From an uncultured Solirubrobacterales bacterium (GTDB lineage Bacteria > Actinomycetota > Thermoleophilia > Solirubrobacterales > Solirubrobacteraceae), in contig CAWCZI010000012.1 of assembly GCA_963799995.1 (NCBI GenBank), forward strand, positions 1,964,492-2,028,491: a stretch of 64,000 nucleotides of DNA, written 5' to 3'. The first letter of the stretch is position 1. The number at the start of each line of letters is the position of its first letter. The notes below the pieces were generated by a model that had not been told where the DNA came from, ran no database searches, and was given only the letters and a program-made list of their open reading frames with translations. The position numbers and the translations under genes were made by a program. Shown here piece by piece: positions 4,454 to 20,772 of the stretch.

Positions 4454-4460
4454 GCCGGAT

Positions 4461-4473
4461 GCATACATTATGC
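4461..4473. promoter_or_regulatory. Candidate GntR operator (GCATA-cat-TATGC) upstream of the PuuD-like operon
   Basis: AT-rich 5-bp inverted repeat 8-20 nt upstream of the ATG, overlapping a CATAAT -10-like hexamer on the minus strand. A GntR gene lies in the same operon. Confidence 0.45.
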
Positions 4474-5252: not shown

Positions 5253-6638
5253 TCAGCCGCCAACCCTAATCAGTTTCTTGTTGACGAACTCGTCGGCGCC
5301 GTAGCGACCGAGCTCGCGACCGAACCCGGAGCGCTTGACCCCGCCGAAGGGCAGCTCGGCTCCATCGGCTCCGACGACGTTGATGTAGACCATGCCGGCA
5401 TCGATCTTGTCCGCGACGCGCAGCGCCTGGTCGGGATCGTTGGTCATCACGTAGGAGCCAAGCCCGTACGGGGTGTCGTTGGCCAACTCGACGGCTTCGT
5501 CCTCCGAGCTCACCCGGTAGACCTGCGCGACCGGGCCGAAGAACTCCTCTCGGTAGGCGTCCATCTCGGGCTTGATGTCGGCCAGCACAGTGGTTGAGAA
5601 GAAGTTGCCCTCGTGGTCGCCGCCGGCCACCAGCCTGGCCCCCTGATCGACGGCGCGCTTGAGCTGGTCCGCGAGTCGGTCTGTCGCCGCCGAGGAGGAG
5701 AGGGGGCCGATCGCCGTGTCGGGCGAGGTGGGGTCGCCCGGCTTGACTGCGGTTATGGCAGCGGTGAATTTGTCCATGAACGGCTCGTACAGCTCGTCGG
5801 CGACGATGAATCGCTTGGCGGCGTTGCAGGACTGGCCGGTGTTGTCCAGCCGGGCGCCCACGGCAGCCTCGACGGCCCCGTCCAGATCGTCGGTGCCCAG
5901 CAGGATGAACGGGTCAGAGCCGCCGAGCTCGAGGACCACCTTTTTGAGATTGCGCCCGGCGATCTCCGCGACGGCGGTGCCGGCGCGCTCTGAGCCGGTC
6001 AGCGACACGCCCCGCACGCGCGGGTCGGCGATCACCCACTCGATCTGCTCGTTGGTGGCATAGATGTTGATGTAGGCGTCCGAAGGGAACCCGGCCTCGT
6101 GGTAGATCCGCTCGATCGCCTCCGCCGACTCGGGGCATTGAGGCGCGTGCTTGAGCAGGATCGTGTTGCCGATCACCAGATTCGGTCCCGCGAACCGTGC
6201 CACCTGGTAGTAGGGGAAGTTCCACGGCATGATGCCGAGCAACACGCCCAGGGAGCTGCGGCGGATGAACGCCGACCCGTCGCCCGCCAGCAGCTCGATC
6301 GGCTCGTCGGCCAGGAGCTTGGGGCCATTGTCAGCGTAGAAGCTGTAGATATCGACGCAGAAGTCCACCTCGCCGAGGGCCTGCTCGATCGGCTTGCCCA
6401 TTTCCCGCACGATGATCTCGGCCAGCCGCTCGCGCTGCTCGCCGTGCAACTCCCCCACGCGGCGAAGCAGAGCCGCACGCTCCTCCACGGTGGTCGACGC
6501 CGACCACTCGCGATGAGCCTTGTCGGCCCTGGCGATCGCGTCCTTGAGCTCCTCGTCGCTGATCGTCGGGTACTCCTTCACGACCTCGCCCGTCGCCGGG
6601 TTGACGACCGCGTAGTCAGCCGCCTGAACTTGAGCCAT
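5253..6638 (-). CDS. gabD: NAD(P)-dependent succinate-semialdehyde dehydrogenase
   Basis: IMPWNFPYYQ, KHAPQCP, TGSERAG, ELGGSDP, catalytic GQSCNA, EEFFGP; RBS GGGAGG upstream. Confidence 0.88.
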   Translation of the reverse strand: MAQVQAADYAVVNPATGEVVKEYPTISDEELKDAIARADKAHREWSASTTVEERAALLRRVGELHGEQRERLAEIIVREMGKPIEQALGEVDFCVDIYSFYADNGPKLLADEPIELLAGDGSAFIRRSSLGVLLGIMPWNFPYYQVARFAGPNLVIGNTILLKHAPQCPESAEAIERIYHEAGFPSDAYINIYATNEQIEWVIADPRVRGVSLTGSERAGTAVAEIAGRNLKKVVLELGGSDPFILLGTDDLDGAVEAAVGARLDNTGQSCNAAKRFIVADELYEPFMDKFTAAITAVKPGDPTSPDTAIGPLSSSAATDRLADQLKRAVDQGARLVAGGDHEGNFFSTTVLADIKPEMDAYREEFFGPVAQVYRVSSEDEAVELANDTPYGLGSYVMTNDPDQALRVADKIDAGMVYINVVGADGAELPFGGVKRSGFGRELGRYGADEFVNKKLIRVGG

Positions 6639-6806: not shown

Positions 6807-7811
6807 TCAGCACGGGTTCCGACGAGCCCAGGCCAGGAAGTCGCGGGTTGCCTGCGGGGTACTGGCAAGCCGGCGTTCGCGCTGCTTGAGGGCGTGAGCG
6901 GTCTCCGAGCGGCTGAACACCCAGCCCAGCGTCTGAATCCGCCGCGCCATCAGGAACGTGGGCAGCTCGGCCGGCAACAGGTCGGGGAGCTCTCGAATCT
7001 GTCGGTAGCCGTCGACCAGGGCGTCCCGACGATCCCCCAGACTGCCAGTTCGGTCGTAGGGGTACAGGGCGACGGCGAACTCGTGCCCGTACCAGCTGTG
7101 TCCGCTGTCGTCGAAGTCGATGACGACGACCGCGCCGTCGTCGCAGACAAGGACGTTCTCGAACCCCAGGTCGCCGTGGATCAGCCCGAACCGATCCGGC
7201 CGTTCGCCGATCACATCCAGCCGCGCCCGGACCTCGGTCCGGCACGCCTCCAGCGCGGCCCGGTCATCCGCGGCGAACACGGAATGGGGGTCGGGCGGTC
7301 CCCACCGTGGATCGTCTCCCACCAGCGCCTCGGCGTCCCACGCGGGCCGCAAAAACCACGGGGGCGCCGCCCACGCGCGCGCGTGCGCGTGAATACGCGC
7401 CATTAATTCCCCCAGCCTCTCCCATGGCTTCACCTCGCTGACCGAACTCAGCGGTACGCCGTCGATCCACTCGAACAGCACCGCGGTGCGAGAGCAGCCC
7501 GGGCCGGCGGTCGCGGTCTGGAGCGGATCGCCATCGCATCCGGGCACCGCCGCGGCGGTCCGTACGCCGCTGCCCCGCAGGCTCTCCATCCACGCCAGCT
7601 CGGATCGAATCGCCGCGGCGGACTGGTATCCGGGCCGGTGAACGCGCAGGGCAAAGCGCCGTCCGTCCGGGGCGTGGATCCTGTACGTCGTGTTCTCGCC
7701 GTGGCGCACGAACGTGGCGCGGGCCTGTCCGCTGAACCCGAAGCGAGCCATCGCGTCGGCGACCAGAGCGGCCGGCAGCGGATCGCCGGCCACCTGGCCC
7801 GCCGACCTCAC
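6807..7811 (-). CDS. APH/choline-kinase-like phosphotransferase (amino-alcohol kinase type)
   Basis: ENTTYR, LRVHRPGY..AIRSELAWM, Brenner motif IHGDLGFENVL, IDFDDSG. GTGA overlap with the aminotransferase stop. Confidence 0.88.
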   Translation of the reverse strand: MRSAGQVAGDPLPAALVADAMARFGFSGQARATFVRHGENTTYRIHAPDGRRFALRVHRPGYQSAAAIRSELAWMESLRGSGVRTAAAVPGCDGDPLQTATAGPGCSRTAVLFEWIDGVPLSSVSEVKPWERLGELMARIHAHARAWAAPPWFLRPAWDAEALVGDDPRWGPPDPHSVFAADDRAALEACRTEVRARLDVIGERPDRFGLIHGDLGFENVLVCDDGAVVVIDFDDSGHSWYGHEFAVALYPYDRTGSLGDRRDALVDGYRQIRELPDLLPAELPTFLMARRIQTLGWVFSRSETAHALKQRERRLASTPQATRDFLAWARRNPC

Positions 7812-9115
7812 CGCGGGCTCTTGGCCCGCACGTGCCGGCTGGGGACGGGCCGGTCGACGTCCTTGGCGCGCTGCAGCGCGGCGTCGAGGCGCTCGAGCAC
7901 CGTGTCAGCGAGCGCATCCTCGAGCAGCAGGCCGGGCTTGAACTGCAGGACCGATTGGTCAAAGCCCGATGCGATCGCCCACACGCCGAGCTCGAACAGC
8001 TCCTGCTGCAGGTAGACGGCTCCGTCGGGGTGATCGACGCGCAGGCCGATCACGAGCCCGCTCTGGCGCACCTCGGTCAGGTACGGGTGGCGGTCGCGCA
8101 GCTCCGACAGGCCGCGGCCGACGTGCTCGATCAGGTGCGTGATCTGCGTCTGCACCGCGGGACGGGTCGTGATCTCCAGCACGCGCTCAGCAACCCGGCA
8201 GCCGATCTCGGCACCGCCGAAGGTCGAGACATGTCCCCAGCCGTTCTCGTGCAGCCACCCAGCGGCCCGCGCCGCGATCACCGTCGCCGCGATCGGATAC
8301 ATGCCGCCGGAGAGCCCCTTTGCGGTGACCAGGATGTCCGGCTGCACGCCGAAGGTCTCGACCCCCCACAAGCGCCCGGTGCGCCCCAGTCCCGTCTGCA
8401 CCTCATCGGCGATGTAGAGCGCCTCGTTCTCCTCGCACAGCGCCTTGACCGCGGGCAGATAACCGTCCGGCGGCACCGGGAAGCCATAGGTCGCCGGCAC
8501 CGTCTCTAGGAGCACCGCGGCCACGTCTCCCCTGGACATCTCGGCCGCGATCGCGTCGAGGTCGCCGAACGGCACCTTCGCGAACTGATCGGGCAGATCG
8601 GACAGGAAGTAGGCTGCCCCCGCGTCCTCGCCCGCGGCGCCCGAGAGTCCCGTGCGACCGTGGTATCCGGCGGCCAGCGTCACGATCCGCCGGCGCCCGG
8701 TCGCCCGCCGGGCGGTCTTGATGGCGACGTCGATCGCCTCGCTGCCCCCGGAGGCGAACACCGTGTACGCCAGGTCACCGGGGGTGAGCTCGGCCAGCCG
8801 GGCGGCCAGCTCGGCGCGAGCGGTGCTGGCGAAGTGGTGGTTTCCGATGTCCATCGTGGATGCGGCCGTGACCATCGCCTCCACAACCTCGGGGTTGCGA
8901 TGCCCGAGGTTGAAGGTGCCTCCGTTCAGGTGCAGGTCGATCAGCTCCCGGCCGTCGAGATCCCACAGCCGGTAGCCCTCGCGGCGGCCGATCACGAGCT
9001 GGGTGCCGAACGCCTCCCAGACGTCGACGCGGTGCGGGGCGACGTGCCGGCGGGTCAGCTCGAGCACGCGTTCCTTCTCGGATCCCCGGGCGCTCCCCGG
9101 GCCAGTGGAACTCAC
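7808..9115 (-). CDS. Class III PLP aminotransferase / putative phospho-lyase (AAU/RMM-like)
   Basis: HLNGGTFNLGHRNP, GGSEAID, YHGRTG, ETVPATYG, DEVQTGLGRTG, TAKGLSGG (PLP Lys), HVSTFGG. Confidence 0.9.
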   Translation of the reverse strand: MSSTGPGSARGSEKERVLELTRRHVAPHRVDVWEAFGTQLVIGRREGYRLWDLDGRELIDLHLNGGTFNLGHRNPEVVEAMVTAASTMDIGNHHFASTARAELAARLAELTPGDLAYTVFASGGSEAIDVAIKTARRATGRRRIVTLAAGYHGRTGLSGAAGEDAGAAYFLSDLPDQFAKVPFGDLDAIAAEMSRGDVAAVLLETVPATYGFPVPPDGYLPAVKALCEENEALYIADEVQTGLGRTGRLWGVETFGVQPDILVTAKGLSGGMYPIAATVIAARAAGWLHENGWGHVSTFGGAEIGCRVAERVLEITTRPAVQTQITHLIEHVGRGLSELRDRHPYLTEVRQSGLVIGLRVDHPDGAVYLQQELFELGVWAIASGFDQSVLQFKPGLLLEDALADTVLERLDAALQRAKDVDRPVPSRHVRAKSPR

Positions 9116-9885
9116 TCGTAGAACCCGTCCGGGGCCAACTTGAGCCGCTCGCGGTAGTCGAGATCGTGGGTGGCTATGAGCAGCGCGTCGTGCTCACGCT
9201 CGAGCGCCTCGATCCGCTCCCAGCTGGACACCATCGCATCCGGGCTCCACAGGACCGCCGGCAGCGCACGCTCGCGCATCTTGGCCAGCAGGTAGGTCGC
9301 GTCGGCGAGCAGGATGACCGTCTGTCCGCTGTCGAGCCTCACCATCAGCGACTGGTGCCCCCGGGAGTGACCGGGGGTGCTCAGCGCGACCAGGCGCCCG
9401 TCGCCGAAGATGTCGTGATCGCCGTCGAGCTGATGCCAGTCGAGCTCGTGCTCGAAGTCGGCGGCCACGTAGAGCAGGCGTTGGTACACCGGTGGCTGCC
9501 GCGCGAAGCTCAGCTCCTCGCGCTGCACCAGGACGGGTGCGTGGGTGAGCCACCCGAGGCCCCCGGCGTGGTCGAAGTGCAGGTGTGACTGGACCACGAT
9601 GTCGATGTCGGTGGGCTTCAGGCCGATGGTCGCCAGGCGCGCCTCGAGGTGGTCCTCGGAGCTCATCTGGACCTCGAACGACGCTGCCGCCGGCCCCAGC
9701 CGGGCCTCGGGATCGGTGCCCATCTGCGGGTGCACCCCGGTGTCGAACAGGACGTTGCCGCGCGGATGCGTGATGACGTACATGAAGTACGGGTTGTAGA
9801 CCTTCGTTCCCACGCGCTCGTCGAACGGGTCAAAGGCCGCCCAGTCCATCAGATCGCCGCCGCAGTGCAGCGCGTACAGCCTCAT
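9112..9885 (-). CDS. N-acyl-homoserine-lactonase-family metallo-beta-lactamase-fold hydrolase
   Basis: VLFDTG, SHLHFDHAGG (HxHxDH), TPGHSRGH, LADA; AiiA/AttM-like layout. Confidence 0.88.
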   Translation of the reverse strand: MRLYALHCGGDLMDWAAFDPFDERVGTKVYNPYFMYVITHPRGNVLFDTGVHPQMGTDPEARLGPAAASFEVQMSSEDHLEARLATIGLKPTDIDIVVQSHLHFDHAGGLGWLTHAPVLVQREELSFARQPPVYQRLLYVAADFEHELDWHQLDGDHDIFGDGRLVALSTPGHSRGHQSLMVRLDSGQTVILLADATYLLAKMRERALPAVLWSPDAMVSSWERIEALEREHDALLIATHDLDYRERLKLAPDGFYE

Positions 9886-11057
9886 CGTCGCACTCGCCCG
9901 CGGACCGCTTCGGCGGCGGCCTTCAGCGCCGAGCGCTCCGCGTCACTGAGGTTGAGCTCGACGATCTCGAGCACGCCGCCGCGACCCAGCACCGCGGGCA
10001 CCCCGAGGAACAGGTCCTCGATCCCGTATTCGCCCTGCAGATAGGCGGACACCGGGATCGCTCCGGCCTGGGCGCCGCGGATTGCCTGCAGCAGCTCGAT
10101 CGTCGCGTGGGCCGGCGCGACCGTGGCCGATCCAGTCCGGCGCAGGCTGACCACCGCGCCACCACCGGCGACGGTCTCACGGATGCACGCCTGGATTCGG
10201 TCAACGGGCAGCACGTCGACCAGCGGCCGGCCGCGGACGGTCGCGCCGGAGACGATCGGGACCATCTCGTCGCCGTGGCTGCCCAGCGTGATCGCCTCCA
10301 CGTCGAGCGGCTGGACCCCGGCGGCGGTGGCGATGGCGTTGCGAAAGCGGCTGGAGTCGAGCGTGGCGGCCATCCCGAGGACTCGCTCGGTGCCCAGCCC
10401 GCTCGCGCGCCACAGCTCATGGGTCATTTCGTCGAGAGGGTTGGTGACGACGATCACGACGGCGCTCGGGGCGAACTGCGCGATCGCCTCGCCGGCCCCT
10501 CTGATAACCGGGCCGTTGACCTGCATCATGGCGGCGCGATCCATGCCCGGGGTGCGGGGCCTGCCGGCGGTGACGACGACGACGTCGCAGCCTGCAATCA
10601 GGTCCAGCGTGGTTCCGCCGCGGGCCCGGGTCGGTGACCCGGTGATGCCCGACGCGTGCTCGATGTCGAGCGCGACCGACTCCGCGAGGCCGGGCACGAT
10701 GTCGATCAGGCAGATCTCATCCGCAAACCCGTCGATCGCGGCCAGATGAGCGGTGGTGGCCCCGACACCACCGGCGCCGATGAACCCCAGGCGCGTAAAG
10801 CGTGTGGGGGTCAGCCCGCGCGGCCTGTCGGATGCCACCCAGCGCGCGCCTCGGCGATACAGGCTGCGCCGGATCGCCCGGCCTGGATCCGCGCCGATCG
10901 GCGCCGGCTTCTCGAGCGGGCCGCGGACGATCTCCACGCCGAGGCGCTCGAGCGCATCGAGTGCCTGCGGCGTGACGATGTCGTCGTTGGCAACCACGAG
11001 CCGGCGCTGGCCGCGGCGAAATGCCTCGCGAACGTGCTCCTCGCCGACGACGTTCAT
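9882..11057 (-). CDS. mdh: LDH-like malate dehydrogenase with an N-terminal EutQ-N-like domain (about 85 extra aa)
   Basis: GAGGVG, LIDIV, TAGRPRTPGMDR (Arg at the malate-specificity position), VTNPLD, LDSSRF, GSHGD. N-terminus VREAFRRGQRRLVVANDDIVTPQALDALERLGVEI. Confidence 0.85.
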   Translation of the reverse strand: MNVVGEEHVREAFRRGQRRLVVANDDIVTPQALDALERLGVEIVRGPLEKPAPIGADPGRAIRRSLYRRGARWVASDRPRGLTPTRFTRLGFIGAGGVGATTAHLAAIDGFADEICLIDIVPGLAESVALDIEHASGITGSPTRARGGTTLDLIAGCDVVVVTAGRPRTPGMDRAAMMQVNGPVIRGAGEAIAQFAPSAVVIVVTNPLDEMTHELWRASGLGTERVLGMAATLDSSRFRNAIATAAGVQPLDVEAITLGSHGDEMVPIVSGATVRGRPLVDVLPVDRIQACIRETVAGGGAVVSLRRTGSATVAPAHATIELLQAIRGAQAGAIPVSAYLQGEYGIEDLFLGVPAVLGRGGVLEIVELNLSDAERSALKAAAEAVRGRVRR

Positions 11058-11665
11058 CAACGGCCTTCGAGGGCCTCCAGCGAGGACGCGGCGGTGTCGA
11101 TCGCCAGCCGTACGTCAGCTTCCGAGCCGGAGATGAACATCCGACCAAAGCGCCCCACGGTGCGCACCTCGACGATCTTGATCGTGGCCACCTTCTCGGC
11201 CTCGTTGGCCGCCGCGGCGATGTAGGCCGCGGGCCCGCACTCGAGAATCCCCAGGGTCTCGCCCGGCACGAGCAGCGATCCGCTGCGCCACTTGTTGAGC
11301 AGCTGCGCCTGGTAGGGCTCCACCGAGGTGATGATCTGGCTGGACTCGACGTTCGGGCGCCGGCGCTCGGTGAGGCTCATCCCGAGATGCGACAGGATCG
11401 CCTCGCGAGCGGCGCTCACCTCGGCGTTGGCGGGCGACCGCAGGATGAAGAAGCCAAATTCCCGCTCGACGATCTGCGAGGTCGCCTGGACGTCAGCCGC
11501 CTTCAGGGCGACGTCCACGACACGGAAGACCTCGTTGCCCGGACCGATCTCACCGACCAGGATGGTGTCGCCGGAGAGCGGAATCGAGCCCTGCACCGTG
11601 GCGCCGTTGTAGGCGGCGAACTGGGGCTGAAGCCGATCTATCTGCACCAGCGCGCGGAGGTCCAT
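11057..11665 (-). CDS. BMC shell protein, tandem-domain BMC-T (CcmP/CsoS1D-like double-stacking type)
   Basis: MDLRALVQIDRLQPQFAAY, EIGPG..VVDVALK, VEREFG, LECGPAAY...ANEAEK, GRFGRMFISGSEADV. Confidence 0.9.
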   Translation of the reverse strand: MDLRALVQIDRLQPQFAAYNGATVQGSIPLSGDTILVGEIGPGNEVFRVVDVALKAADVQATSQIVEREFGFFILRSPANAEVSAAREAILSHLGMSLTERRRPNVESSQIITSVEPYQAQLLNKWRSGSLLVPGETLGILECGPAAYIAAAANEAEKVATIKIVEVRTVGRFGRMFISGSEADVRLAIDTAASSLEALEGR

Positions 11666-11710
11666 CAGCTGTGCTCCGGGTAAAGGAGGTCCATCAGCTG
11701 GGCTCCGGGT
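11656..11710. repeat. 26-nt direct repeat (29-nt period) duplicating the AldDH stop / BMC-T start junction
   Basis: ggaggtccatcagctg(t/g)gctccgggt at 11656-11681 and 11685-11710. It creates the minus-strand mini-ORF MDLLYPEHS* (11694-11665). Confidence 0.85.
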
Positions 11711-13091
11711 CGAGGAGGTCGTTCAGCGACCGCCAGGGACGGGACTCGTAGGCGATCCGCTTGATGTTGATGAGATGAAGTGCGGTCACGTTGTCGGACA
11801 CGATCGATCCCGACCAGGTGCCGGTGCCGAGCATGAAGCTCGGGTCGATGTCACAGGAGAAGCCCATGCCGCCGTGCAGCGCCGGCGTGTTGACGAGCAC
11901 GCGGCCGGCAGGCAGGCGCGAGAATCGCGCCACGACGCTCGGATCGTCGGCGTGGACCACGGCGGTGTGGCCTTCGCCGCCGAAGCGCAGGACCTCGAGC
12001 GCCCGCTGCGCCCCCGCCTCGGCGTCGCCGACGTCGTAGAAGGCGAGGACCGGATCCAGCTTCTCGGCCGACAGGGGATCGCTGCGTCCCACGGTCTCGA
12101 GCTCCGCCAGCAGGACCCGCGTGCGGGGCGCCACATCGAAACCGGCCAGCTTGGCCAGGCGGGTCGCCGATTGCCCGACGTTCTCGACCTTCAAGCGAAG
12201 ATTGCGGTCGAACAGGACCTCCGCCAGGGACTCCGCCTGTCGCCTGGTGCACAGGTGGCCGCCCTGCTCGCGGATCGCGTGCCGCAGCCGCTCCGCGATC
12301 GGATGATCGGCGATCACGGCCTGCTCCGCGGCGCACGCCGTGCCGTAATCGAACGACTTGCTCGAGAGGATCATGTCCGCGACCTCGTCGAGGTCTCCCG
12401 CCTTGGAGCGATCGACGTAGACGGGAACGTTGCCGGGTCCGACCGCCAGCGTCGGCTTGCCCGAGGAGTAGGCCGCCCGCACCATCGCCGCGCCGCCGGT
12501 GGCCATCACCACGGCGATCCGGCGGTGGCTCATCAGCTCGCGCGTGCCGTCCAGGGTCGAGCCGTCCAGGCACTGGATCAGGCCCGGCGGCGCCCCCTCG
12601 TCCTCGGCGGCGTCGGCGAGGACGCGAGTTGTCTCGGCGCCGCAGTGGCGTCCCCGGGGATGCGGCGCGTGCACGATCGCGTTGCCGGCCTTCACCGCCG
12701 AGAGCGTCTTGAAGATGACGGTCGAGGTCGGATTGGTCACCGGGATCAGCGCGGCCACGACACCCATCGGCTCGCCGACCGCGATCACCTTGGTCGCCTC
12801 GTCGCGCCACAGCACGCCGAGGGTGCGGACGTTGCGCAACCAGTCCGACACCGCGATCGTGTTGAACAGGTTCTTGAGCGCTTTGTCGCCGGCGTTGCCG
12901 TACCCCGTCTCCTCAGCGGCGAGCTCGCCCAGGCGTGCCGCCTCGGGGGCGATCGCCCGCGCCATCGCCTCGACGACGCGATCGACGTCCGCCGGATCCC
13001 AGGTGCGGAACGTCAGCCAGGCCTCGTAGGCGCGGTCGGCCGCCCGCCGCGCCTGGGCGATCGAGTCCAGGTCGGGGTAGGCGAGCGTCAT
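11694..13091 (-). CDS. CoA-acylating aldehyde dehydrogenase (EutE/PduP/AdhE-N type), 465 aa
   Basis: Start MTLAYPDLD at 13091 (ATGA overlap). PVTNPTST, HAPHPRG, ATGGAAMVRAAYSSGKP, VGPGNVP, SKSFDYGTACAAEQ (catalytic Cys), EKLDPVL, GHTA. Confidence 0.92.
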   Translation of the reverse strand: MTLAYPDLDSIAQARRAADRAYEAWLTFRTWDPADVDRVVEAMARAIAPEAARLGELAAEETGYGNAGDKALKNLFNTIAVSDWLRNVRTLGVLWRDEATKVIAVGEPMGVVAALIPVTNPTSTVIFKTLSAVKAGNAIVHAPHPRGRHCGAETTRVLADAAEDEGAPPGLIQCLDGSTLDGTRELMSHRRIAVVMATGGAAMVRAAYSSGKPTLAVGPGNVPVYVDRSKAGDLDEVADMILSSKSFDYGTACAAEQAVIADHPIAERLRHAIREQGGHLCTRRQAESLAEVLFDRNLRLKVENVGQSATRLAKLAGFDVAPRTRVLLAELETVGRSDPLSAEKLDPVLAFYDVGDAEAGAQRALEVLRFGGEGHTAVVHADDPSVVARFSRLPAGRVLVNTPALHGGMGFSCDIDPSFMLGTGTWSGSIVSDNVTALHLINIKRIAYESRPWRSLNDLLDPEPS

Positions 13092-14190
13092 GCCAGCGCC
13101 TGCTCGAGCAGGGAGGCGTCGCCGCCGTCCAGGGCACGGCGGACGTCGTCGGGCCGGAAGCGGTCCAAACCAAGGCTCGGCAGGGTTCGCCCGTGCCGCG
13201 TGTAGTCGAGGCCTGCGAGGACCGAGCCGATATCGACGAGCGCAGCCGCGGTGCGAGTCGGGATGCCGGCCAGCGCGCCGGCGCTGATCGAGCGGCACCA
13301 GCGAGCAGCACAGCGCGTCGTGGACGCGGGGGTCGTCGCTCGCGAGCGCGGGACCGAGGTCCTCCTGCACCGGGGCCGGCGGGAGGTCGCGCACCCCGAA
13401 GGCAAACGCCACCCGGCGGCGCTCGTCGTCGATCCGCCGCGCGACCGACGCGAACTCGCGCAGCAGCGCCGGCGCGACGTCTCTGATTCCGGAGAGGTCC
13501 GAGAAGCTGGTCTCGAGCACACCGCGAGCGGGGATGAGCATCGGCAGCAGGGCCCGCAGCCGCTGCACCGCGTCCTCGGTGGCGCGGTTGGGCAGCGCCG
13601 CCGCGGGCACCTCCGCGCTCACGGCCGCGAGCGTGAGCGCACCCGGTTCAGAGGACTCGACCCGGTAGGGCGAAGCCGCCAGCTCGACGATCGTCGGAAG
13701 GTCCGGCGCAGGCGAAACGGCGCAGCGAGCGGGCGACCTCGACGGCCCCGAACGAGCGTCCTGGGACCAGCACCAGGAGCTGCTCGGGCCGCAGCCGGCC
13801 CGCCAGCAGGCCGCCGCAGGTGGCGTGGGCGATGCCGGGAGTCGCGACCAGGATCGCGTCGGCTTCGGTCACGGCGTCGTCGATCCCGGTTCTCAGGCCG
13901 ATCGCCGGCTGGGCGGATGGGCCGTCGGCCAGCCGGTAGGTGCCGACCAGATGCTCGCCCCGCACGGTCACCGCCCGCGGCGCGGCCAGCGCCGCGCGCT
14001 CGGGCTCGAATGCCGTGTGAAGCGTCACTTCGCACTCGGCCGCCAGACACTCGCAGGCCAGGGCCTGGCCCACCGGTCCGGCTCCCAGCACGGCGACGCG
14101 GCGCAGCGGGCGGCGCTCGGGCACCCCGGCCGCCGGCTTGACCTCGTTGAGGTCGGCCAGCAGCGCTTCGAATTCGCCGGCAGAGGTCAT
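13088..14190 (-). CDS. Opine (octopine/nopaline) dehydrogenase-like protein, frameshifted at about 13710 and 13291, apparently catalytically divergent
   Basis: Three frame segments: Rossmann VAVLGAGPVG...ADAILVATP...LVPGRSFGA; then PTIVELAASPY...LETSF...IDDERRRVA; then LVP..ISAGALAGIPT...GRTLPSLGL. This is the opine-DH domain order. Alternative start at 14211. Confidence 0.72.
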
Positions 14191-14215
14191 CCTCGCCGCC
14201 GACCGGGCCATGCGG

Positions 14216-14512
14216 CTACTCGCTGGCGGAGCCGGAGATCATCGAAGCGAGGTCGCCATGTGGCCGGGCGATGACATGGATCGACAGGACCTCGCCGACC
14301 TTGTTGGCGGCCACACCACCGGCGTCCGTCGCCGCCTTGACGGCGCCGACGTCGCCGCGGACGATCACCGTCACCAGGCCGCCGCCGACCCGCTCGTTCG
14401 TGACCAGCTCGACGTTCGCGGCCTTGACCATCGCGTCGGCGGCCTCCAGCGCTGGAACCAGGCCTCGAGTCTCGATCATCCCTAGCGCTACCTGCGGGGT
14501 TTCCGCCATCAC
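14216..14512 (-). CDS. BMC shell hexamer protein (BMC-H, EutM/PduA-like)
   Basis: [28 protein letters not shown]...[23 protein letters not shown]...HVIARPH. Confidence 0.96.
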
Positions 14513-14820
14513 TTGCTCCTTGTCTTGGTGGGCTGTTTGCGGCTCGACGTGCCGGCGTGCAGGTTGACGGCATCGACGATCGCGACGATCGTCAGGTCGG
14601 TGGCGGCCGCGCGCGACTGCGGCGGCTGCCGGGCCGCCGACCCGCGCGTGATCAGCACCTGATCACCGGGCCCGGCACCGACCGTGTCAACGGCGACCTC
14701 GGCCGGTCTGGCATCAGAACCGGCCGGGTCCAGCGGCTGGACGATCAACAGCTTGTGCGAGAGCAGGCTCTCGGTCTTCGCGGTCGCGGTCACCGAGCCG
14801 AGCACTTGCGCGAGCTCCAT
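14509..14820 (-). CDS. BMC vertex pentamer protein (BMC-P, EutN/CcmL family) with a basic C-terminal tail
   Basis: [48 protein letters not shown]. Confidence 0.95.
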
Positions 14821-14872
14821 CAGTGGCGCCCCGGGTGGCGGTTATGCTCGGCTATTTCCGCAATCATGGACG

Positions 14873-14889
14873 TTCGTGTACCGTATACA
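14873..14889. promoter_or_regulatory. Candidate GntR operator in the divergent BMC/oxidase promoter region
   Basis: Its reverse complement TGTATACGGTACACGAA is 15/17 identical to 19986-20002. Confidence 0.6.
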
Positions 14890-14918
14890 GTGACCCGAGG
14901 GAATGCAAGGGCCGGGCA

Positions 14919-14970
14919 CCGGGAGGACAGCTGATGGCCGGGACCCGGGAGGAGAGCTGATGGCCGGGAC
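14919..14970 (+). repeat. 26-nt tandem duplication of RBS plus start codon
   Basis: ccgggagga(c/g)agctgatggccgggac x2. The first copy encodes MAGTREES*, whose TGA overlaps the real ATG (TGATG). Confidence 0.85.
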
Positions 14971-16105
14971 GAGCGATGCGGTCGTGATCGGAGCCGGCAT
15001 CGCCGGAGCCTCGGCGGCGCTCGCGCTGCGCAGGCGTGGGCTCGACGTCACGCTGATCGATGCACGGGAGCCCGGACACGCGCGCGCAGCCTCCGCCGGA
15101 GATCACCGCATCCTGCGCGCCAGCCACGGGTCGGATCAGCTGTACACCCGCTGGAGCCGGGAGGCGCGTCTGCGCTGGATGGAGCTCGGAGCCGAGGTCG
15201 GCCAGGAGCTGTTCGTCCAGAGCGGAGCGGTCATGCTCGCCAAGGCCGGACACACGCAATGGGAGGACGCCTCCCGCGACACCCTCGCCCGGCTGGGGGT
15301 TCCGAGCTTCGTGGTCGACGTGGACGAGCTGCGCCTGCGCCTGCCGCTGATCGACCCGCGCGGCCTGGCGTACGGCCTGTGGGAGCCCGAATCCGGATTC
15401 GTGTACGCGCGGCGAGCCGTCCAGGCGACGGTCCGGCTGTTCGTCGAGATGGGCGGGGTTCTGCGGCGCGGCGTGGGCGGCACCGACGAGCGTGAGCGTC
15501 CCCTGGTCGACGGCCGGCCGATCGAAGCGGGCGTCATCGTCTTCGCCTGCGGCGCCTGGATGGGCCGGCTCTTTCGCCGCACCCTGGGGCAGCTGCTCGA
15601 CATCGTCCGCCAGGATGTGATGATGGTCGAGCCACCACCCGGGGCGACCGGCTATGACGCCGACAGCTTCCCGGCCTGGATCGATCATGGGTATCCCGCC
15701 TACGGGATACCGGCGTCCGGCGGCTACGGCTTCAAGGCGGTGCTCAACTGGCGCGGCATCACGCTCGACATAGACCGCGATGACCGCTTGATCTCCCCCA
15801 CGTCGGTGGCCCGCACGCGGCGCTATCTGGCTCATCGCTTTCCCGCGCTGGCCAACGCGCCGATCGTCGGCCAGGAGGTGGGCCAGATCGCCAACACCAC
15901 CGACACCCACTTCCTGATCGACCACCACCCCGCGCACGACCGCCTCGTGCTCGTGGCCGGCGACTCGGGACACCTGTTCAAGCATGGTCCCGTGGTCGGT
16001 GACCACATCGCCGCGCTCGCGCTTAACGAGATCGACCCCGAGCCGCGTTTCAGCCTCGGCAAGCGCCCCGCCGTGGCGGTCACGTCGGCCGACCGCCCGC
16101 AGTAG
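14960..16105 (+). CDS. FAD-dependent amine oxidoreductase (monomeric sarcosine oxidase/DAAO family), 381 aa
   Basis: AVVIGAGIAG, ASAGDHRILR, FACGAW, TTDTHFLIDHHP, AGDSGHLFKHGPVVG. Confidence 0.88.
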   Translation: MAGTSDAVVIGAGIAGASAALALRRRGLDVTLIDAREPGHARAASAGDHRILRASHGSDQLYTRWSREARLRWMELGAEVGQELFVQSGAVMLAKAGHTQWEDASRDTLARLGVPSFVVDVDELRLRLPLIDPRGLAYGLWEPESGFVYARRAVQATVRLFVEMGGVLRRGVGGTDERERPLVDGRPIEAGVIVFACGAWMGRLFRRTLGQLLDIVRQDVMMVEPPPGATGYDADSFPAWIDHGYPAYGIPASGGYGFKAVLNWRGITLDIDRDDRLISPTSVARTRRYLAHRFPALANAPIVGQEVGQIANTTDTHFLIDHHPAHDRLVLVAGDSGHLFKHGPVVGDHIAALALNEIDPEPRFSLGKRPAVAVTSADRPQ

Positions 16106-16121
16106 AGGACGATCGGTCCGC

Positions 16122-16941: not shown

Positions 16942-18351
16942 TCAGAACTGAAACGGGCGGTCGATGCCGGCCAGCGAGACGCCGGTGAATGCCGACGCTT
17001 CGAGCGTCAGCGCGCGGAGGTCCTCGGGCTCGAGGTTGTGCACCGATGACTTGCCGCACGCCTTGGCCAGCAGCGTGGCCTCCATCGTCATCGCGGTCAG
17101 CAGACGCAAGGTTCGCTCCGCGCCGGCCTCGACATCCATCCGCTCCTCGAGCTCGGGGTCCTGGGTGGTGATCCCGACCGGGCAGCGACCGGTATGGCAG
17201 TGATGACAGGAGCCGGGAGCGGTCCCGAGGGCGGCGTAGTCGTCGACGTAGCGCGGCGAATTACAACCGAGCCCGATCAGCGCCGCGGTCGCGATCATCG
17301 CGCAGTCGGCGCCGAGGGCGAGCGCCTTGGCGACGTCGACCCCGGAGCGGATGCCGCCGGAGACGACGAGCTTCACCTTGTCGGCCATCCCGCAGTCCTC
17401 GAGCGCGCGGCGCGCGGCGGGGATTGCGGAGATCAACGGCACCCCGGTGTGGTCCAGCAGCATCTCGGGCGAGGCGCCGGTCGAGCCCTCCATCCCGTCG
17501 AGCACGATCACGTCGGCACCGGTCTTGGCCGCCACCGCCACGTCGTAGTAGGGACGCGTCGCCCCGAGCTTGATGAAGATCGGGACGCGGTAGCCGGTGG
17601 CGTCGCGCAGCTCCTCGATCTTGATCTGCAGATCGTCGGCGCCGAGGAAGTCTGGATGGCGGACGGTCGCTCGCTGGTCCACTCCGAGCGGAAGCGAGCG
17701 CATGCGGGCGACTCGCTCGGAGACCTTCATGCCCAGCAGCAGCCCGCCGGTACCGGGCTTGGCGCCCTGCCCCACCACGACCTCGATCCCGTCGGCGCGG
17801 CGCAGATGGTCGAGGTCGAGCATGTAGCGCGACGGGGTCAGCTGGTACACGAGCGTCTGCGACTCCGCGCGCTCGTCCTCGAGCATGCCGCCCTCGCCCG
17901 TGCAGGTCATCGTGCCGGCCCGCGAGGCACCCCGGCCGAGCGCGGCCTTGGCGCTCGCCGACAGCGCGCCGAAGCTCATCGACGCGATGTAGATCGGGAT
18001 CTCGAGCTCGATCGGCTCCTCCACCAGTCCCAGCCCATCTCCCAGAACCGTTTTCGTGTCGCATTTCTCGCGGTAGCCCTCCAGCGGCAGCCGCGTCATC
18101 GTCGCCGGCTGGAAGACGAGATCGTCGAAGCTGGGCAGCTGGCGCTGGAAGGTGGAGAAGCCGCGGATCTGATAGCGCCCGAGCTGTGCCTTGGCGTGAA
18201 TGTCGGCGATCGCCGCCGGCGTCCACCGCGACGAGCCGCCGCGGGTGTAGGACCGGGCCACCCCCGCCGGCCGGCCGGCCTGCGCTCCGTCGGAGAACGC
18301 CGCCGGGTCCTCTTCGGGGTGGCCGTTGGCGCCGTTCAGATCATCAGCCAT
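16942..18351 (-). CDS. glxD: FMN-binding glutamate synthase-family subunit (GlxD / N-methylglutamate synthase MgsC-like)
   Basis: MSFGALS, TGEGG, GQGAKPGTGG, DGMEGSTGA, SGGIRSGVDVAKALALGAD, CHHCHTGRCPVGITTQDP. Start at MADDLNG. Confidence 0.85.
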   Translation of the reverse strand: MADDLNGANGHPEEDPAAFSDGAQAGRPAGVARSYTRGGSSRWTPAAIADIHAKAQLGRYQIRGFSTFQRQLPSFDDLVFQPATMTRLPLEGYREKCDTKTVLGDGLGLVEEPIELEIPIYIASMSFGALSASAKAALGRGASRAGTMTCTGEGGMLEDERAESQTLVYQLTPSRYMLDLDHLRRADGIEVVVGQGAKPGTGGLLLGMKVSERVARMRSLPLGVDQRATVRHPDFLGADDLQIKIEELRDATGYRVPIFIKLGATRPYYDVAVAAKTGADVIVLDGMEGSTGASPEMLLDHTGVPLISAIPAARRALEDCGMADKVKLVVSGGIRSGVDVAKALALGADCAMIATAALIGLGCNSPRYVDDYAALGTAPGSCHHCHTGRCPVGITTQDPELEERMDVEAGAERTLRLLTAMTMEATLLAKACGKSSVHNLEPEDLRALTLEASAFTGVSLAGIDRPFQF

Positions 18352-20763: not shown

Positions 20764-20772
20764 GGTCGCAGT

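What the first reader, a model, noticed from the sequence alone, without database searches (positions are those of the whole stretch)
6807..14820. Bacterial microcompartment operon with an unusual cargo set (AAU/RMM-like core plus opine-DH-like protein, EutQ-N-MDH and lactonase)
SEEN: nine co-oriented genes, in order BMC-P, BMC-H, opine-DH-like, acylating AldDH, BMC-T, MDH fusion, lactonase, class III aminotransferase, APH kinase. Nearly all are joined by overlapping stop/start codons, so they form one coupled operon. KNOWN: APH kinase + class III aminotransferase + acylating AldDH + BMC-T is the core of aminoacetone-utilisation (AAU/RMM) microcompartments of mycobacteria and rhodococci. There an amino alcohol is phosphorylated, and a PLP phospho-lyase is proposed to release an aldehyde that becomes acyl-CoA. 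DIFFERENT HERE: the operon has no SDR aminopropanol dehydrogenase, alcohol dehydrogenase or phosphotransacylase, only one gene of each shell class, and three cargo enzymes I do not know from that type. INFERENCE: a new BMC subtype for an N-substituted or lactonised amino alcohol. Possible route: the lactonase opens a ring, amine cleavage frees an amino alcohol, kinase plus phospho-lyase give an aldehyde, AldDH makes acyl-CoA, and MDH recycles NADH. I cannot confirm novelty without a search.
Basis: partly seen in the sequence, partly recalled or inferred. Interest (0 to 1): 0.92.

Follow-up and report, generated by a model that had tools for sequence, protein, structure and literature searches.

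The report
MIC2 microcompartment operon fused to amine-catabolism cassette
This is a real protein-shelled bacterial organelle operon, but its core is the already catalogued, function-unknown "MIC2" type rather than a new aminoacetone-type compartment, and here a separate kinase/aminotransferase/lactonase cassette that also works without a compartment sits directly behind it.

Summary
The nine co-oriented minus-strand genes exist at 6807-14820, and six of eight junctions overlap. In this sequence the opine-dehydrogenase-like gene is broken by two 1-base insertions. Close relatives in four public runs lack both, and four other genes in the window are also frameshifted, so these are most likely assembly errors.

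The first six genes (BMC-P, BMC-H, opine-DH-like, acylating AldDH, BMC-Tdp, EutQ-N-MDH) match BMC type MIC2 of Sutter et al. 2021, whose function is unknown. They are not an AAU/RMM core.

Across 71 species, nearly every locus long enough to show them has the same partners: GntR, N-methylglutamate-synthase-like genes, a sarcosine-oxidase-like flavoenzyme, a GS-like ligase, RidA and an ABC transporter. This points to amine catabolism through glutamylated or N-alkylglutamate intermediates.

Lactonase-AT-APH is a separate Thermoleophilia cassette. Copies up to 87-89% identical occur without any shell genes and have no extra termini. Flank synteny shows the MIC2 block lies inside a P450/ADH/kinase/gamma-glutamyl-hydrolase amine operon.

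Verdict: a lineage-specific variant of a known type. The main value is a testable hypothesis for MIC2 function.

The parts
14877..14909 (-). Conserved promoter/operator-like element in the divergent intergenic region. It has a -35-like TTGCAT (14902-14908) and the palindrome-containing TGTATACGGTACA (14877-14889), of the TGTA-N5-TACA GntR/FCD operator type.
   Evidence: The same motif lies upstream of the operon in L007, L008 and L009. Function is inferred.
14821..14867 (-). 15-codon remnant ORF. It keeps the start and the stop/ATG overlap of the GS-like gene that precedes BMC-P in other MIC2 loci.
   Evidence: In L009 the same start (ATGATTGGGGAA) opens an intact GS-like gene that ends TGATG on BMC-P. 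The window, L007 and L008 keep only short remnants.
14509..14820 (-). BMC-P pentamer (vertex) shell protein, 103 aa.
   Evidence: PF03319, 2e-28. 82-84% identical to the L008/L009 orthologues.
14216..14512 (-). BMC-H hexamer shell protein, 98 aa.
   Evidence: PF00936, 5e-28. 79% identical to the Thermocrispum MIC2 BMC-H.
13088..14211 (-). Opine-dehydrogenase-like (6PGDH-like) protein with an N-terminal encapsulation-peptide-like helix. The likely start is 14190. The gene is interrupted in this assembly by 1-base insertions near 13711 and 13288.
   Evidence: Three-frame alignment to the intact 366-aa orthologue, 76-82% identity per piece. Profile hit to 1BG6 at 5e-47. Invariant-Phe helix plus a variable linker in 48/48 orthologues. 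Both extra bases are absent in relatives.
11694..13091 (-). CoA-acylating aldehyde dehydrogenase, 465 aa. Its start overlaps the ODH stop (ATGA).
   Evidence: PF00171. TIGR02518 EutE-type 1.5e-139 and AdhE N-domain 6e-137. 67% identical to the Thermocrispum MIC2 AldDH.
11057..11665 (-). BMC-Tdp (CcmP/CsoS1D-like double-stacking trimer) shell protein, 202 aa.
   Evidence: CcmP model 8e-62. 75% identical to the Thermocrispum agreste Tdp, which Sutter et al. file as Tdp_bluish_MIC2.
9882..11060 (-). Malate dehydrogenase (residues about 88-392) carrying an N-terminal EutQ-N-like domain of about 88 residues.
   Evidence: Ldh_1_N and Ldh_1_C. MDH subfamily above the cut-off. Best PDB matches are LDH-like MDHs. 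N-terminus aligned to EutQ 1-47. More than 100 full-length homologues.
9112..9885 (-). MBL-fold lactonase-like hydrolase (AttM/AiiA type). First gene of the separate cassette.
   Evidence: PF00753. AttM model 1.4e-55, below its cut-off. PDB AHL lactonases 5e-37. 89% identical to the BMC-free copy in L080.
7808..9115 (-). Class III PLP enzyme (aminotransferase or phospholyase), cassette gene 2.
   Evidence: PF00202, 1e-76. 87% identical to the BMC-free L080 copy, with no extra termini. An AT-then-APH pair also occurs on Pseudomonas and Rhizobium plasmids.
6807..7811 (-). APH-family small-molecule kinase, cassette gene 3.
   Evidence: PF01636. Best PDB match is 6EF6 at 1.3e-44.
5253..6638 (-). 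Non-acylating aldehyde dehydrogenase (succinate-semialdehyde-DH-like), 168 nt downstream of APH.
   Evidence: PF00171, 4e-134. SSADH models are the best hits but fall below their cut-offs. Present after APH in L001 and L004.
3737..4468 (-). Peptidase C26 / class I GATase (gamma-glutamyl-amide hydrolase type). Continues the cassette operon, followed by ADC and FAA-hydrolase genes (2010-3646).
   Evidence: 83-92% identical to L080 C26, ADC and FAA.
14960..16105 (+). Monomeric sarcosine-oxidase / N-methyltryptophan-oxidase-like FAD enzyme, transcribed divergently from the shell operon.
   Evidence: PF01266. MTOX model 1.5e-53. Present in this position and orientation in nearly all MIC2 loci.
16942..19963 (-). 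Three genes like N-methylglutamate synthase MgsA/B/C: class II amidotransferase 19013-19963, GXGXG 18336-19016, and glutamate-synthase FMN domain 16942-18411.
   Evidence: Pfam. Conserved upstream of the shell genes in the loci long enough to show it.
20050..21170 (-). GntR/FCD regulator (20050-20763) and RidA imine deaminase (20773 to about 21170). These mark the upstream end of the MIC2 block.
   Evidence: Pfam. Synteny. The Zn-ADH orthologue of L080 begins right after, at 21296.

Best explanation
The region is a composite of two modules.

(1) Positions about 9886-21170 hold a MIC2-type metabolosome locus with its usual partner genes. [quoted passage not shown] Three enzymes go inside:
- an opine-dehydrogenase-family protein, targeted by a short N-terminal amphipathic helix;
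- a CoA-acylating aldehyde dehydrogenase;
- a malate dehydrogenase, tethered by an EutQ-N-like domain.

Proposed pathway (inferred). A small primary amine is taken up and joined to glutamate. A GS-like ligase does this where present, and then the N-methylglutamate-synthase-like MgsABC acts. The resulting N-substituted glutamate is oxidised at the C-N bond. Inside the shell the NAD-dependent opine-DH-like enzyme does this. A sarcosine-oxidase-like flavoenzyme plus RidA provide a parallel or upstream imine route. The products are glutamate and a volatile or toxic aldehyde. AldDH converts the aldehyde to acyl-CoA. MDH re-oxidises the NADH by reducing oxaloacetate to malate. No phosphotransacylase is present, so CoA or acyl-CoA must cross the shell, probably through the Tdp pore.

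(2) Positions 6807-9885 (lactonase-like MBL, class III PLP enzyme, APH kinase) belong to a separate Thermoleophilia operon: P450, Zn-ADH, MBL, AT, APH, (AldDH), gamma-glutamyl hydrolase, ADC, FAA hydrolase, GntR. This operon resembles the Ipu alkylamine pathway. The MIC2 block sits in the middle of it. These three enzymes are most likely cytosolic. The kinase and PLP enzyme probably turn an amino alcohol into an aldehyde plus ammonia and phosphate, as in the AAU/RMM system. That aldehyde would then go to the compartment's AldDH or to the adjacent soluble AldDH.

Shown: gene identities, MIC2 synteny, the independence of the cassette, and the insertion geometry. Inferred: every substrate and reaction step, encapsulation, and the coupling between the two modules.
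For: MIC2 identity:
- The catalogue description matches feature for feature.
- Thermocrispum agreste shell proteins filed as MIC2 are 55-79% identical to the window's, in the same gene order.

Partner genes:
- In 71 species loci the order [GntR] MgsA MgsB MgsC DAO< GS P H ODH AldDH T MDH RidA ABC is nearly invariant.
- Unsupervised clustering finds no other conserved enzyme.

Enzyme families:
- ODH-like profile hits opine DH 1BG6 at 5e-47 over its full length.
- The DAO is MSOX/MTOX-like.
- The GS is like gamma-glutamylputrescine or type III GS.
- The AldDH is of the acylating type and the MDH is above its subfamily cut-off.

Targeting:
- Invariant-Phe helix plus variable linker on the ODH-like protein in 48/48 orthologues.
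- EutQ-N homology on the MDH.

Cassette independence:
- MBL-AT-APH occurs without shell genes in L078, L079 and L080.
- Those copies are 87-89% identical to the window's, with the same termini.
- AT-then-APH pairs occur on proteobacterial plasmids.

Insertion geometry:
- The window's flanks match L080 gene for gene on both sides of the MIC2 block.

Cassette makes an aldehyde:
- The kinase's closest solved relative is 6EF6. From memory, this is the M. smegmatis aminopropanol kinase.
- In the window, L001, L004, L079 and L080 an AldDH gene lies in the same cluster as the cassette or its APH; L078 shows none.
- The Ipu scheme runs GS-like, P450, amidohydrolase, amino alcohol, propionaldehyde (PMC6776027).

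The fused arrangement is common:
- It is present in L009.
- At least eight further metagenome contigs appear to carry both the MDH and the AT, judged by matching contig lengths.
- It is present in relatives' contigs.
Against: - No experiment exists for MIC2. As of late 2024 its NAD+ recycling was still called undetermined.
- The ODH-like family has no invariant His. The column of the His202 position of 1BG6 holds D, T, E or A, so canonical opine-DH chemistry may not apply.
- Typical opine DHs release 2-oxo acids, not simple aldehydes.
- Two enzymes (DAO and ODH-like) compete for the same proposed step.
- The GS-like gene is deleted in the window, L007 and L008.
- The AT is closer to putrescine/acetylornithine transaminases than to anything named as a phospholyase.
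- The lactonase has no assigned role.
- Coupling of the cassette to the shell rests only on operon continuity.
- Transcription evidence is limited to a few short, low-depth metatranscriptome contigs from relatives.
Confidence: 0.55

Rival explanations
1. This is a new AAU/RMM-like BMC subtype in which lactonase, aminotransferase/phospholyase, kinase, opine-DH-like protein and MDH are all cargo of one pathway for a lactonised or N-substituted amino alcohol.
For: - One translationally coupled nine-gene string.
- The APH kinase is related to 6EF6.
- By AldDH phylogeny, RMM1 is the nearest characterised type after MIC1.
Against: - The core matches MIC2, not RMM1. It has a single Tdp where RMM1 has two, no SDR, and MIC2-type Tdp and AldDH.
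- The cassette proteins are the same as in BMC-free loci and lack any targeting extension.
- About 65 other MIC2 loci run without lactonase, AT or APH.
- Two of the four Solirubrobacterales loci lack the AT in the tail.
Confidence: 0.1
2. The two modules are merely neighbours. The MIC2 block landed in, or was lost from, an unrelated catabolic operon. The lactonase/AT/kinase pathway uses only the soluble SSADH-like AldDH and never touches the compartment.
For: - The insertion geometry relative to L080.
- The cassette works in BMC-free contexts.
- A soluble AldDH follows APH in the window, L001 and L004.
- In Rhizobium the AT-APH pair sits beside homoprotocatechuate genes and gabD.
Against: - The MDH/MBL junction is an ATGA overlap in the window and in L004, so the modules are co-transcribed and probably co-translated.
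- The arrangement is retained in all four Solirubrobacterales genomes and in several metagenome contigs.
- Both modules contain gamma-glutamyl/amine-type enzymes, which suggests a shared substrate class.
Confidence: 0.3
3. The opine-DH-like gene is a true pseudogene in this strain, so the compartment is decaying or has been repurposed.
For: Two frameshifts in the deposited sequence. Neither lies in a homopolymer run.
Against: - All three pieces keep 76-82% identity and contain no stop codons.
- Relatives from four runs have the intact frame.
- At least five further frameshifts hit unrelated genes in the same 64 kb. That rate fits long-read assembly error, not gene-specific decay.
Confidence: 0.12
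4. The compartment actually serves the B12-dependent diol dehydratase encoded 14 kb upstream. It would handle propionaldehyde or acetaldehyde from diols, in the PDU manner.
For: A PduCDE-like dehydratase and its reactivase lie at 28734 to about 33900. An acylating AldDH is the natural partner of such an enzyme. Axen et al. saw diol dehydratase genes near RMM2 loci.
Against: - The dehydratase is separated from the BMC operon by unrelated housekeeping genes (GcvP, NAD kinase) and lies on the other strand.
- About 65 MIC2 loci show no dehydratase within 10 kb.
- Sutter et al. found the dehydratase association incidental even for RMM2.
- No targeting peptide was looked for or found.
Confidence: 0.05

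Closest known systems
MIC2 bacterial microcompartment type (Sutter, Melnicki, Schulz, Woyke, Kerfeld 2021, Nat Commun; Supplementary Data 2)
   Same: [quoted passage not shown]
- AldDH without an EP.
- pfam02866 MDH with a roughly 70-aa EutQ-like N-extension.
- 6PGDH-like protein with a short N-terminal EP.
- Same gene order as the catalogued Thermocrispum agreste locus.
   Different: - The pfam00120 GS gene is deleted here, leaving a 15-codon remnant.
- The host is Solirubrobacterales (Thermoleophilia), a lineage not named in the 2021 description.
- The operon continues into a lactonase-AT-APH cassette.
- Two relatives (L004, L009) carry a second BMC-like cluster nearby, whereas the catalogue says MIC2 genomes have no other BMC.
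RMM1/AAUM aminoacetone-utilisation microcompartment (Mycobacterium smegmatis)
   Same: - An APH-family kinase (6EF6 relative) next to a class III PLP enzyme and an acylating AldDH.
- No phosphotransacylase or alcohol dehydrogenase.
- A GntR regulator.
- A plausible shared logic: amino alcohol, then phospho-ester, then aldehyde, then acyl-CoA.
   Different: - RMM1 has two different Tdp, an SDR aminopropanol dehydrogenase and a permease in the locus.
- RMM1 has no opine-DH-like protein and no EutQ-N-MDH.
- Here the kinase and AT belong to a cassette that also exists without shells.
- The window's AT was not compared with the M. smegmatis enzyme.
MIC1 microcompartment type (Actinobacteria)
   Same: Closest AldDH clade, also without an EP. 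Its LDH/MDH-family protein carries a similar EutQ-like N-domain. It has one Tdp and one P.
   Different: [quoted passage not shown]
N-methylglutamate pathway of methylamine oxidation (GmaS, MgsABC, MgdABCD)
   Same: A GS-like ligase, a three-gene amidotransferase/GXGXG/FMN synthase, and a sarcosine-oxidase-family enzyme are clustered together.
   Different: - The oxidase is monomeric MSOX-like, not the four-subunit MgdABCD.
- No model reaches an equivalog cut-off.
- The cluster is welded to a shell operon with an opine-DH-like enzyme.
- The substrate is unknown.
Ipu isopropylamine pathway (Pseudomonas sp. KIE171; Arthrobacter aurescens TC1)
   Same: The operon that the MIC2 block interrupts has a P450, an ADH, (an AldDH), a class I amidotransferase-type gamma-glutamyl hydrolase and, in L080, a GS-like gene. 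This is the Ipu enzyme set.
   Different: Orthology to the Ipu proteins was not tested. The lactonase, kinase, class III PLP enzyme, ADC and FAA hydrolase are not part of the described Ipu pathway.
N-(1-D-carboxyethyl)-L-norvaline dehydrogenase, an opine dehydrogenase (PDB 1BG6)
   Same: Full-length profile match at 5e-47. The Rossmann GxGxxG/A, ERR and GR(T/S)L motifs are shared.
   Different: - The MIC2 protein has an N-terminal targeting helix.
- It has no invariant His.
- The column of the His202 position and the R-Y-x-x-E-D region are not conserved.
- The Solirubrobacterales copies have two internal deletions (366 aa versus about 415 aa).

Membership tests
MIC2 BMC type | [quoted passage not shown] | tested here: met
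   Pfam and NCBIfam. tblastn with the three shell proteins finds no paralogue elsewhere in the 64 kb.
MIC2 BMC type | pfam02866 lactate/malate dehydrogenase with a roughly 70-aa EutQ-like N-terminal extension | tested here: met
   MDH domain at residues 88-392. Residues 1-46 align to EutQ 1-47 at E 4e-5.
MIC2 BMC type | 6-phosphogluconate-DH-like (opine-DH-like) protein with a short N-terminal helical EP | tested here: met
   Present between BMC-H and AldDH. The helix with an invariant Phe is conserved in 48/48 orthologues. The gene is frameshifted in this assembly but intact in relatives.
MIC2 BMC type | Aldehyde dehydrogenase (pfam00171) without an EP, in the MIC1/MIC2 clade | tested here: inconclusive
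   It is an acylating AldDH with no N-extension. It is 67% identical to the Thermocrispum MIC2 AldDH and 35% identical to the AldDH of the second cluster in L004. No tree with catalogue references was built.
MIC2 BMC type | pfam00120 glutamine-synthetase-like gene in the locus | tested here: not met
   Only a 15-codon remnant lies between the DAO and BMC-P. The gene is intact in L009 and in nearly all other loci. A distant GS-like gene lies at 44193-45474.
MIC2 BMC type | Shell proteins fall in the MIC2 HMM clades (e.g. Tdp_bluish_MIC2) | tested here: inconclusive
   75% identity to a Tdp that the catalogue labels Tdp_bluish_MIC2. The BMC Caller HMMs were not available.
RMM1/AAUM BMC type | [quoted passage not shown] | tested here: not met
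   A single Tdp. Definition.
RMM1/AAUM BMC type | Short-chain dehydrogenase (aminopropanol dehydrogenase) and amino-acid permease in the locus | tested here: not met
   None within the operon. Two generic SDRs and an APC permease lie 20-23 kb away. Their similarity to 6CI8/6CI9 is unremarkable, about 1e-27 among many hits.
RMM1/AAUM BMC type | APH-family amino-alcohol kinase paired with a class III aminotransferase-like phospholyase | tested here: inconclusive
   The pair is present, and the kinase's best solved relative is 6EF6. The AT's best matches are transaminases. The pair is not BMC-specific.
MIC1 BMC type | [quoted passage not shown] | tested here: not met
   There is one BMC-H and none of these enzymes in the operon.
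Opine dehydrogenase family (PF02317) | Two-domain fold with an NAD(P) Rossmann domain and a helical domain, matched over the full length | tested here: met
   Profile versus 1BG6 at 5e-47, covering residues 7-357 of 359. PF02317 is recorded for the Thermocrispum and Nocardioides orthologues.
Opine dehydrogenase family (PF02317) | Conserved catalytic His (His202 of 1BG6, recalled from memory) and the Arg/Asp of the R-Y-x-x-E-D region | tested here: not met
   No His is 95% or more conserved in 48 sequences. The His202 column holds D, T, E or A. This depends on an alignment at about 30% identity.
N-methylglutamate pathway | GmaS, MgsABC and the four-subunit MgdABCD | tested here: inconclusive
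   MgsABC-like domain sets are present. GS-like is present in other loci. The oxidase is monomeric MSOX-like, not MgdABCD. No equivalog-level hits were found.

The most novel reading that the evidence does not exclude
MIC2 is an alkylamine-utilisation microcompartment. Its signature enzyme would be an opine-dehydrogenase-derived, NAD-dependent N-alkylglutamate dehydrogenase that releases the aldehyde inside the shell. NAD+ would be regenerated by an encapsulated malate dehydrogenase instead of an alcohol dehydrogenase. In Solirubrobacterales this organelle would have been spliced into an Ipu-like operon, so that a second, AAU-like kinase/phospholyase route feeds the same shell. The result would be a two-entry aldehyde organelle.
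Probability: 0.25. Interest if true: 0.8.

Novelty: new variant of a known kind. Interest (0 to 1): 0.5.

Why it matters
MIC2 is one of the metabolosome types whose substrate, signature enzyme and NAD+ recycling are still unassigned.

The synteny assembled here gives a concrete and cheap set of experiments in cultured carriers. Across 71 species the partner set is near-invariant: N-methylglutamate-synthase-like genes, a sarcosine-oxidase-like enzyme, a GS-like ligase, RidA and an ABC transporter. In Thermoleophilia the block sits inside an alkylamine/amino-alcohol operon.

If the hypothesis is confirmed, it would add amine oxidation through N-substituted glutamate to the chemistry known to be compartmentalised. 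It would also show a dicarboxylate shuttle (oxaloacetate/malate) serving as the redox valve of a protein organelle.

For this particular window the practical message is more modest. The locus belongs to a known type, its supposedly odd cargo is that type's standard cargo, and the true add-on is a separate cassette.

Tried and rejected
- Exact look-up of the window's MDH in the assembly index: not on record. The window's genome is also absent from the species-representative scan.
- Pfam on the isolated MDH N-extension: no hit, even at E 10.
- Promoter/terminator consensus scan: counts at chance level, nothing usable.
- Literature searches found nothing on MIC2 function or on BMCs in this lineage. 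The searches covered MIC2 function, microcompartment plus N-methylglutamate/ethylamine/opine dehydrogenase, N-ethylglutamate, and microcompartment plus Thermoleophilia.
- One search was badly posed and returned only Roseobacter papers.
- Mallette & Kimber 2018 is not held. The identity of 6EF6 and 6CI8/9 as the M. smegmatis kinase and dehydrogenase therefore rests on memory.
- Plasmid search for an RMM reference locus: it returned AT-APH pairs without shells instead.
- SDRs near the diol dehydratase: only generic SDR similarity, so they were rejected as evidence for an AAU-type dehydrogenase.
- Metatranscriptome runs: only 150-260-nt contigs at depth 2-6 from relatives. One (X8, 9759-9913) spans the MDH/MBL junction. 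This is too weak to show co-transcription.
- Reading the ODH-like gene as a pseudogene was considered and rejected. The assembly shows frameshifts throughout, and relatives are intact.
- A glyoxylate/opine substrate, with MDH acting as the 'alcohol dehydrogenase' equivalent, was considered and left open. There is no evidence either way.

Full report
OBSERVATION.

- BMC-P, 14509-14820.
- BMC-H, 14216-14512.
- Opine-dehydrogenase-like gene, 13088-14211.
- CoA-acylating AldDH, 11694-13091.
- CcmP-like BMC-Tdp, 11057-11665.
- Malate dehydrogenase with an 88-residue N-extension, 9882-11060.
- AttM/AiiA-type MBL-fold hydrolase, 9112-9885.
- Class III aminotransferase, 7808-9115.
- APH-family kinase, 6807-7811.

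Six of the eight junctions are stop/start overlaps (ATGA, GTGA or TGATG). The other two are gaps of 4-25 nt and 28 nt.

The third gene is not a single ORF here. Translation in three frames and tblastn with an intact 366-aa orthologue show that it switches frame twice, near 13711 and 13288. Each switch comes from a one-base insertion relative to the orthologue.

Laying contigs from four public runs that hold about 95%-identical relatives onto the region shows one base 'left out' at exactly 13711 and 13288 in all four. Over the first 20 kb, the only single-base indels shared by two independent relatives are these two and one at 1377. The one at 1377 is the frameshift in another aminotransferase gene. 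A GS-like gene (44193-45474), the p450 (22426-23656) and the Zn-ADH (21296-22389, two shifts) are also split across frames. At least seven frameshifts in 64 kb, all absent from relatives where checked, point to assembly indel errors rather than decay of this gene. The nearest genomes are long-read soil MAGs.

WHAT THE CORE IS.

The N-extended MDH has over a hundred full-length homologues in Actinomycetota and Alphaproteobacteria. Their genomic contexts always show P-H-(opine-DH-like)-AldDH-Tdp-MDH.

Supplementary Data 2 of Sutter et al. 2021 describes exactly this as BMC type MIC2 (22 loci at that time):
- an AldDH without an EP;
- a pfam02866 dehydrogenase with a roughly 70-aa EutQ-like N-extension found only in BMC loci;
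- a 6PGDH-like protein with a roughly 10-aa N-terminal EP;
- a pfam00120 glutamine synthetase;
- nearest relatives MIC1 and then RMM1; function unknown.

The Thermocrispum agreste proteins in that paper's trees are labelled MIC2. Their locus (L002, L003, L012) is collinear with the window at 55-79% shell identity, 67% AldDH identity and 61% MDH identity.

RMM1/AAUM is defined by two different Tdp, and MIC1 by two BMC-H. Neither fits this locus. A 2024 paper from the same group still lists MIC2 among types whose NAD+ regeneration is undetermined. I found no later functional work.

I confirmed the 'EutQ-N' label directly. MDH residues 1-46 align with residues 1-47 of E. coli EutQ (32% identity, E 4e-5), although Pfam sees nothing there.

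The opine-DH label also holds at family level. A five-sequence profile matches the Arthrobacter opine dehydrogenase 1BG6 over its whole length at 5e-47.

CONSERVED CONTEXT OF MIC2.

A scan of one genome per species with the opine-DH-like profile returned 71 loci:
- three Solirubrobacterales MAGs;
- several Actinomycetes, including Thermocrispum and Nocardioides;
- about 55 Alphaproteobacteria, mostly Rhodobacterales and Hyphomicrobiales;
- Granulosicoccaceae and Geminicoccaceae.

Scoring every locus with the window's proteins gives an almost invariant order: [GntR] - class II amidotransferase - GXGXG - glutamate-synthase FMN domain - (class I amidotransferase) - FAD oxidase on the opposite strand - GS-like - P - H - ODH - AldDH - Tdp - MDH - RidA - Liv-type ABC transporter. 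Unsupervised clustering of all ORFs from 48 long loci finds no further conserved enzyme.

The three-gene set has the domain make-up of N-methylglutamate synthase. The oxidase is closest to monomeric sarcosine / N-methyltryptophan oxidases. The GS-like protein is closest to gamma-glutamylputrescine and type III GS models. The catalogue text mentions only the GS. All of these partners except the GS-like gene and the ABC transporter are present in the window, at 14960-21170.

In 48 of 48 orthologues the ODH-like protein starts with a roughly 12-residue helix containing an invariant Phe. A variable linker of about 20 residues follows before the Rossmann fold. This is the classic encapsulation-peptide layout. 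The family has many invariant Arg, Glu and Asp residues but no invariant His, and the column of His202 of 1BG6 is variable. Its chemistry may therefore differ from that of textbook opine dehydrogenases.

THE TAIL IS A DIFFERENT MODULE.

MBL and APH follow the MDH only in the window and the three Solirubrobacterales loci. The AT sits between them only in the window and L009.

The AT family is very large in Thermoleophilia metagenomes. Three contexts chosen from it carry MBL-AT-APH, or AT-APH with a nearby MBL, and no shell gene at all. The copy in L080 is 87% (AT), 89% (MBL) and 71% (APH) identical to the window's. The AT and MBL are as close as or closer to L080 than to the BMC-linked L009 copies. 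No copy has an added N- or C-terminal segment. AT-then-APH pairs also occur on Pseudomonas and Rhizobium plasmids.

The window's flanks are collinear with L080.
- L080 reads: NAD kinase - GcvPA - GcvPB - isochorismatase - RNR - DUF1059 - P450 - AldDH - Zn-ADH - MBL - AT - APH - C26 hydrolase - ADC - FAA hydrolase - GntR.
- The window reads: NAD kinase - GcvPA - GcvPB - isochorismatase - P450 - Zn-ADH | RidA - GntR - MgsABC-like - a/b hydrolase - oxidase - MIC2 operon | MBL - AT - APH - AldDH2 - C26 - ADC - FAA - AT2 - GntR.

The roughly 12-kb MIC2 block therefore lies inside an older operon, and the MDH/MBL overlap is the right-hand seam.

That older operon resembles the Ipu alkylamine pathway. 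It has a P450, an ADH, an AldDH and a gamma-glutamyl hydrolase, plus a GS-like gene at the end of the L080 locus. In the Ipu pathway gamma-glutamylation, P450 hydroxylation and hydrolysis yield an amino alcohol that goes on to propionaldehyde or alanine (PMC6776027).

The kinase's best solved relative is 6EF6 (1.3e-44). From memory, this is the aminopropanol kinase of the M. smegmatis AAU compartment. The AT's best matches are PigE, putrescine and acetylornithine transaminases, so phospholyase activity is a hypothesis only.

MECHANISM.

Shown: the identities above, the MIC2 architecture, the conserved partner set, the targeting-like features on the ODH-like protein and the MDH, the independence of the cassette, and the insertion geometry.

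Inferred: an amine is imported and attached to glutamate by the GS-like ligase and then the MgsABC-like synthase. The N-substituted glutamate is oxidised at the C-N bond. Inside the shell the NAD-dependent opine-DH-like enzyme does this. The sarcosine-oxidase-like enzyme and RidA handle the same or a neighbouring imine step outside. The aldehyde released is trapped by the acylating AldDH. The encapsulated MDH regenerates NAD+ from oxaloacetate. With no phosphotransacylase, acyl-CoA must leave, presumably through the gated Tdp.

In this lineage the downstream kinase and PLP enzyme probably make an aldehyde from an amino alcohol in the cytosol. Whether that aldehyde enters the shell or goes to the soluble SSADH-like AldDH (5253-6638) is open. 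I put functional coupling and mere adjacency at roughly equal odds.

A Puu-like reading of the upstream steps is an alternative: GS-like ligase, FAD oxidase, AldDH, then C26 hydrolase. It does not explain the MgsABC-like genes.

NOVELTY AND SCORE.

What is not in the catalogue:
- the Thermoleophilia host range;
- the loss of the GS gene;
- the fusion to the lactonase-AT-kinase cassette.

Matching contig lengths between the hit tables suggest that at least eight further soil contigs carry both the MDH and the AT. This makes the locus a new variant of a known kind.

The more interesting product of the analysis is the conserved amine/N-alkylglutamate gene set around MIC2, together with its placement inside an alkylamine operon. 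Together these make the unknown function of MIC2 testable. Interest 0.5.

Noticed in passing
window 761-1998; 21296-22389; 22426-23656; 44193-45474: Four further genes are split across reading frames: a class III aminotransferase, a Zn-ADH (two shifts), a P450 and a GS-like ligase. Relatives' contigs have an extra C at 1377. The assembly seems to carry about one indel error per 9 kb.
   Followed up: partly
window 14821-14867 and 14877-14909: A 15-codon ORF keeps the start and the stop overlap of the GS-like gene that normally precedes BMC-P. L007 and L008 have remnants of different length, and L009 has the intact gene. Just upstream lies a motif conserved in all four, TGTATACGGTACA with a -35-like TTGCAT, which looks like a GntR/FCD operator over a promoter.
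   Followed up: partly
window 14925-14962: A 26-bp tandem duplication spans the ribosome-binding site and start of the sarcosine-oxidase-like gene (CCGGGAGGA[C/G]AGCTGATGGCCGGGAC, twice). One relative's contig lacks 26 bases at 14919.
   Followed up: no
window 28734 to about 34700 (+), and 35219-38506: A B12-dependent diol/glycerol dehydratase lies here: a large+medium subunit fusion ORF of 749 aa and a small subunit ending at 31369. It is followed by a two-subunit reactivase, an a/b hydrolase, two SDRs and an APC-family permease, 14-24 kb from the shell operon. The set recalls the diol dehydratase genes once noted near RMM2 loci. No targeting peptides were examined.
   Followed up: partly
L004 17049-21185; L009 19100-21098: Two Solirubrobacteraceae relatives carry a second BMC-like cluster a few kb downstream of the MIC2 operon. 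It comprises a class III AT (433 aa, 49-51% identical to the window's AT), a 525-aa AldDH and another Tdp (36% identical to the MIC2 Tdp). The 2021 catalogue states that MIC2 genomes have no other BMC locus.
   Followed up: partly
window 16122-16931: An alpha/beta-hydrolase gene lies between the FMN-domain gene and the oxidase. It is present only in the window and in none of the 71 other loci.
   Followed up: no
L001/L004/L009 ODH-like genes versus L002/L005/L006 (alignment A3): The Solirubrobacterales opine-DH-like proteins (366 aa) lack two internal segments of about 30 residues each that are present in the roughly 400-415-aa forms of other lineages. Family-wide there is no conserved histidine.
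   Followed up: partly
L082 (Rhizobium leguminosarum pRL9b4) 4325-14541: Two class III aminotransferases and an APH kinase sit beside hpaR and homoprotocatechuate genes, a PLP decarboxylase and gabD. This hints that some AT-APH pairs act on aromatic ethanolamines such as octopamine. HpaB and extradiol dioxygenase genes also lie near the cassette in L001 and L080.
   Followed up: no
window 40618-41838: A second P450 gene, 46% identical to the P450 of the cassette operon.
   Followed up: no
window 5000-20000 in RNA runs X8 and X9: Short soil-metatranscriptome contigs (150-260 nt, depth 2-6) from close relatives match BMC-H, AldDH, MBL, the oxidase, the hydrolase and the FMN-domain gene. One contig spans the MDH/MBL junction.
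   Followed up: partly
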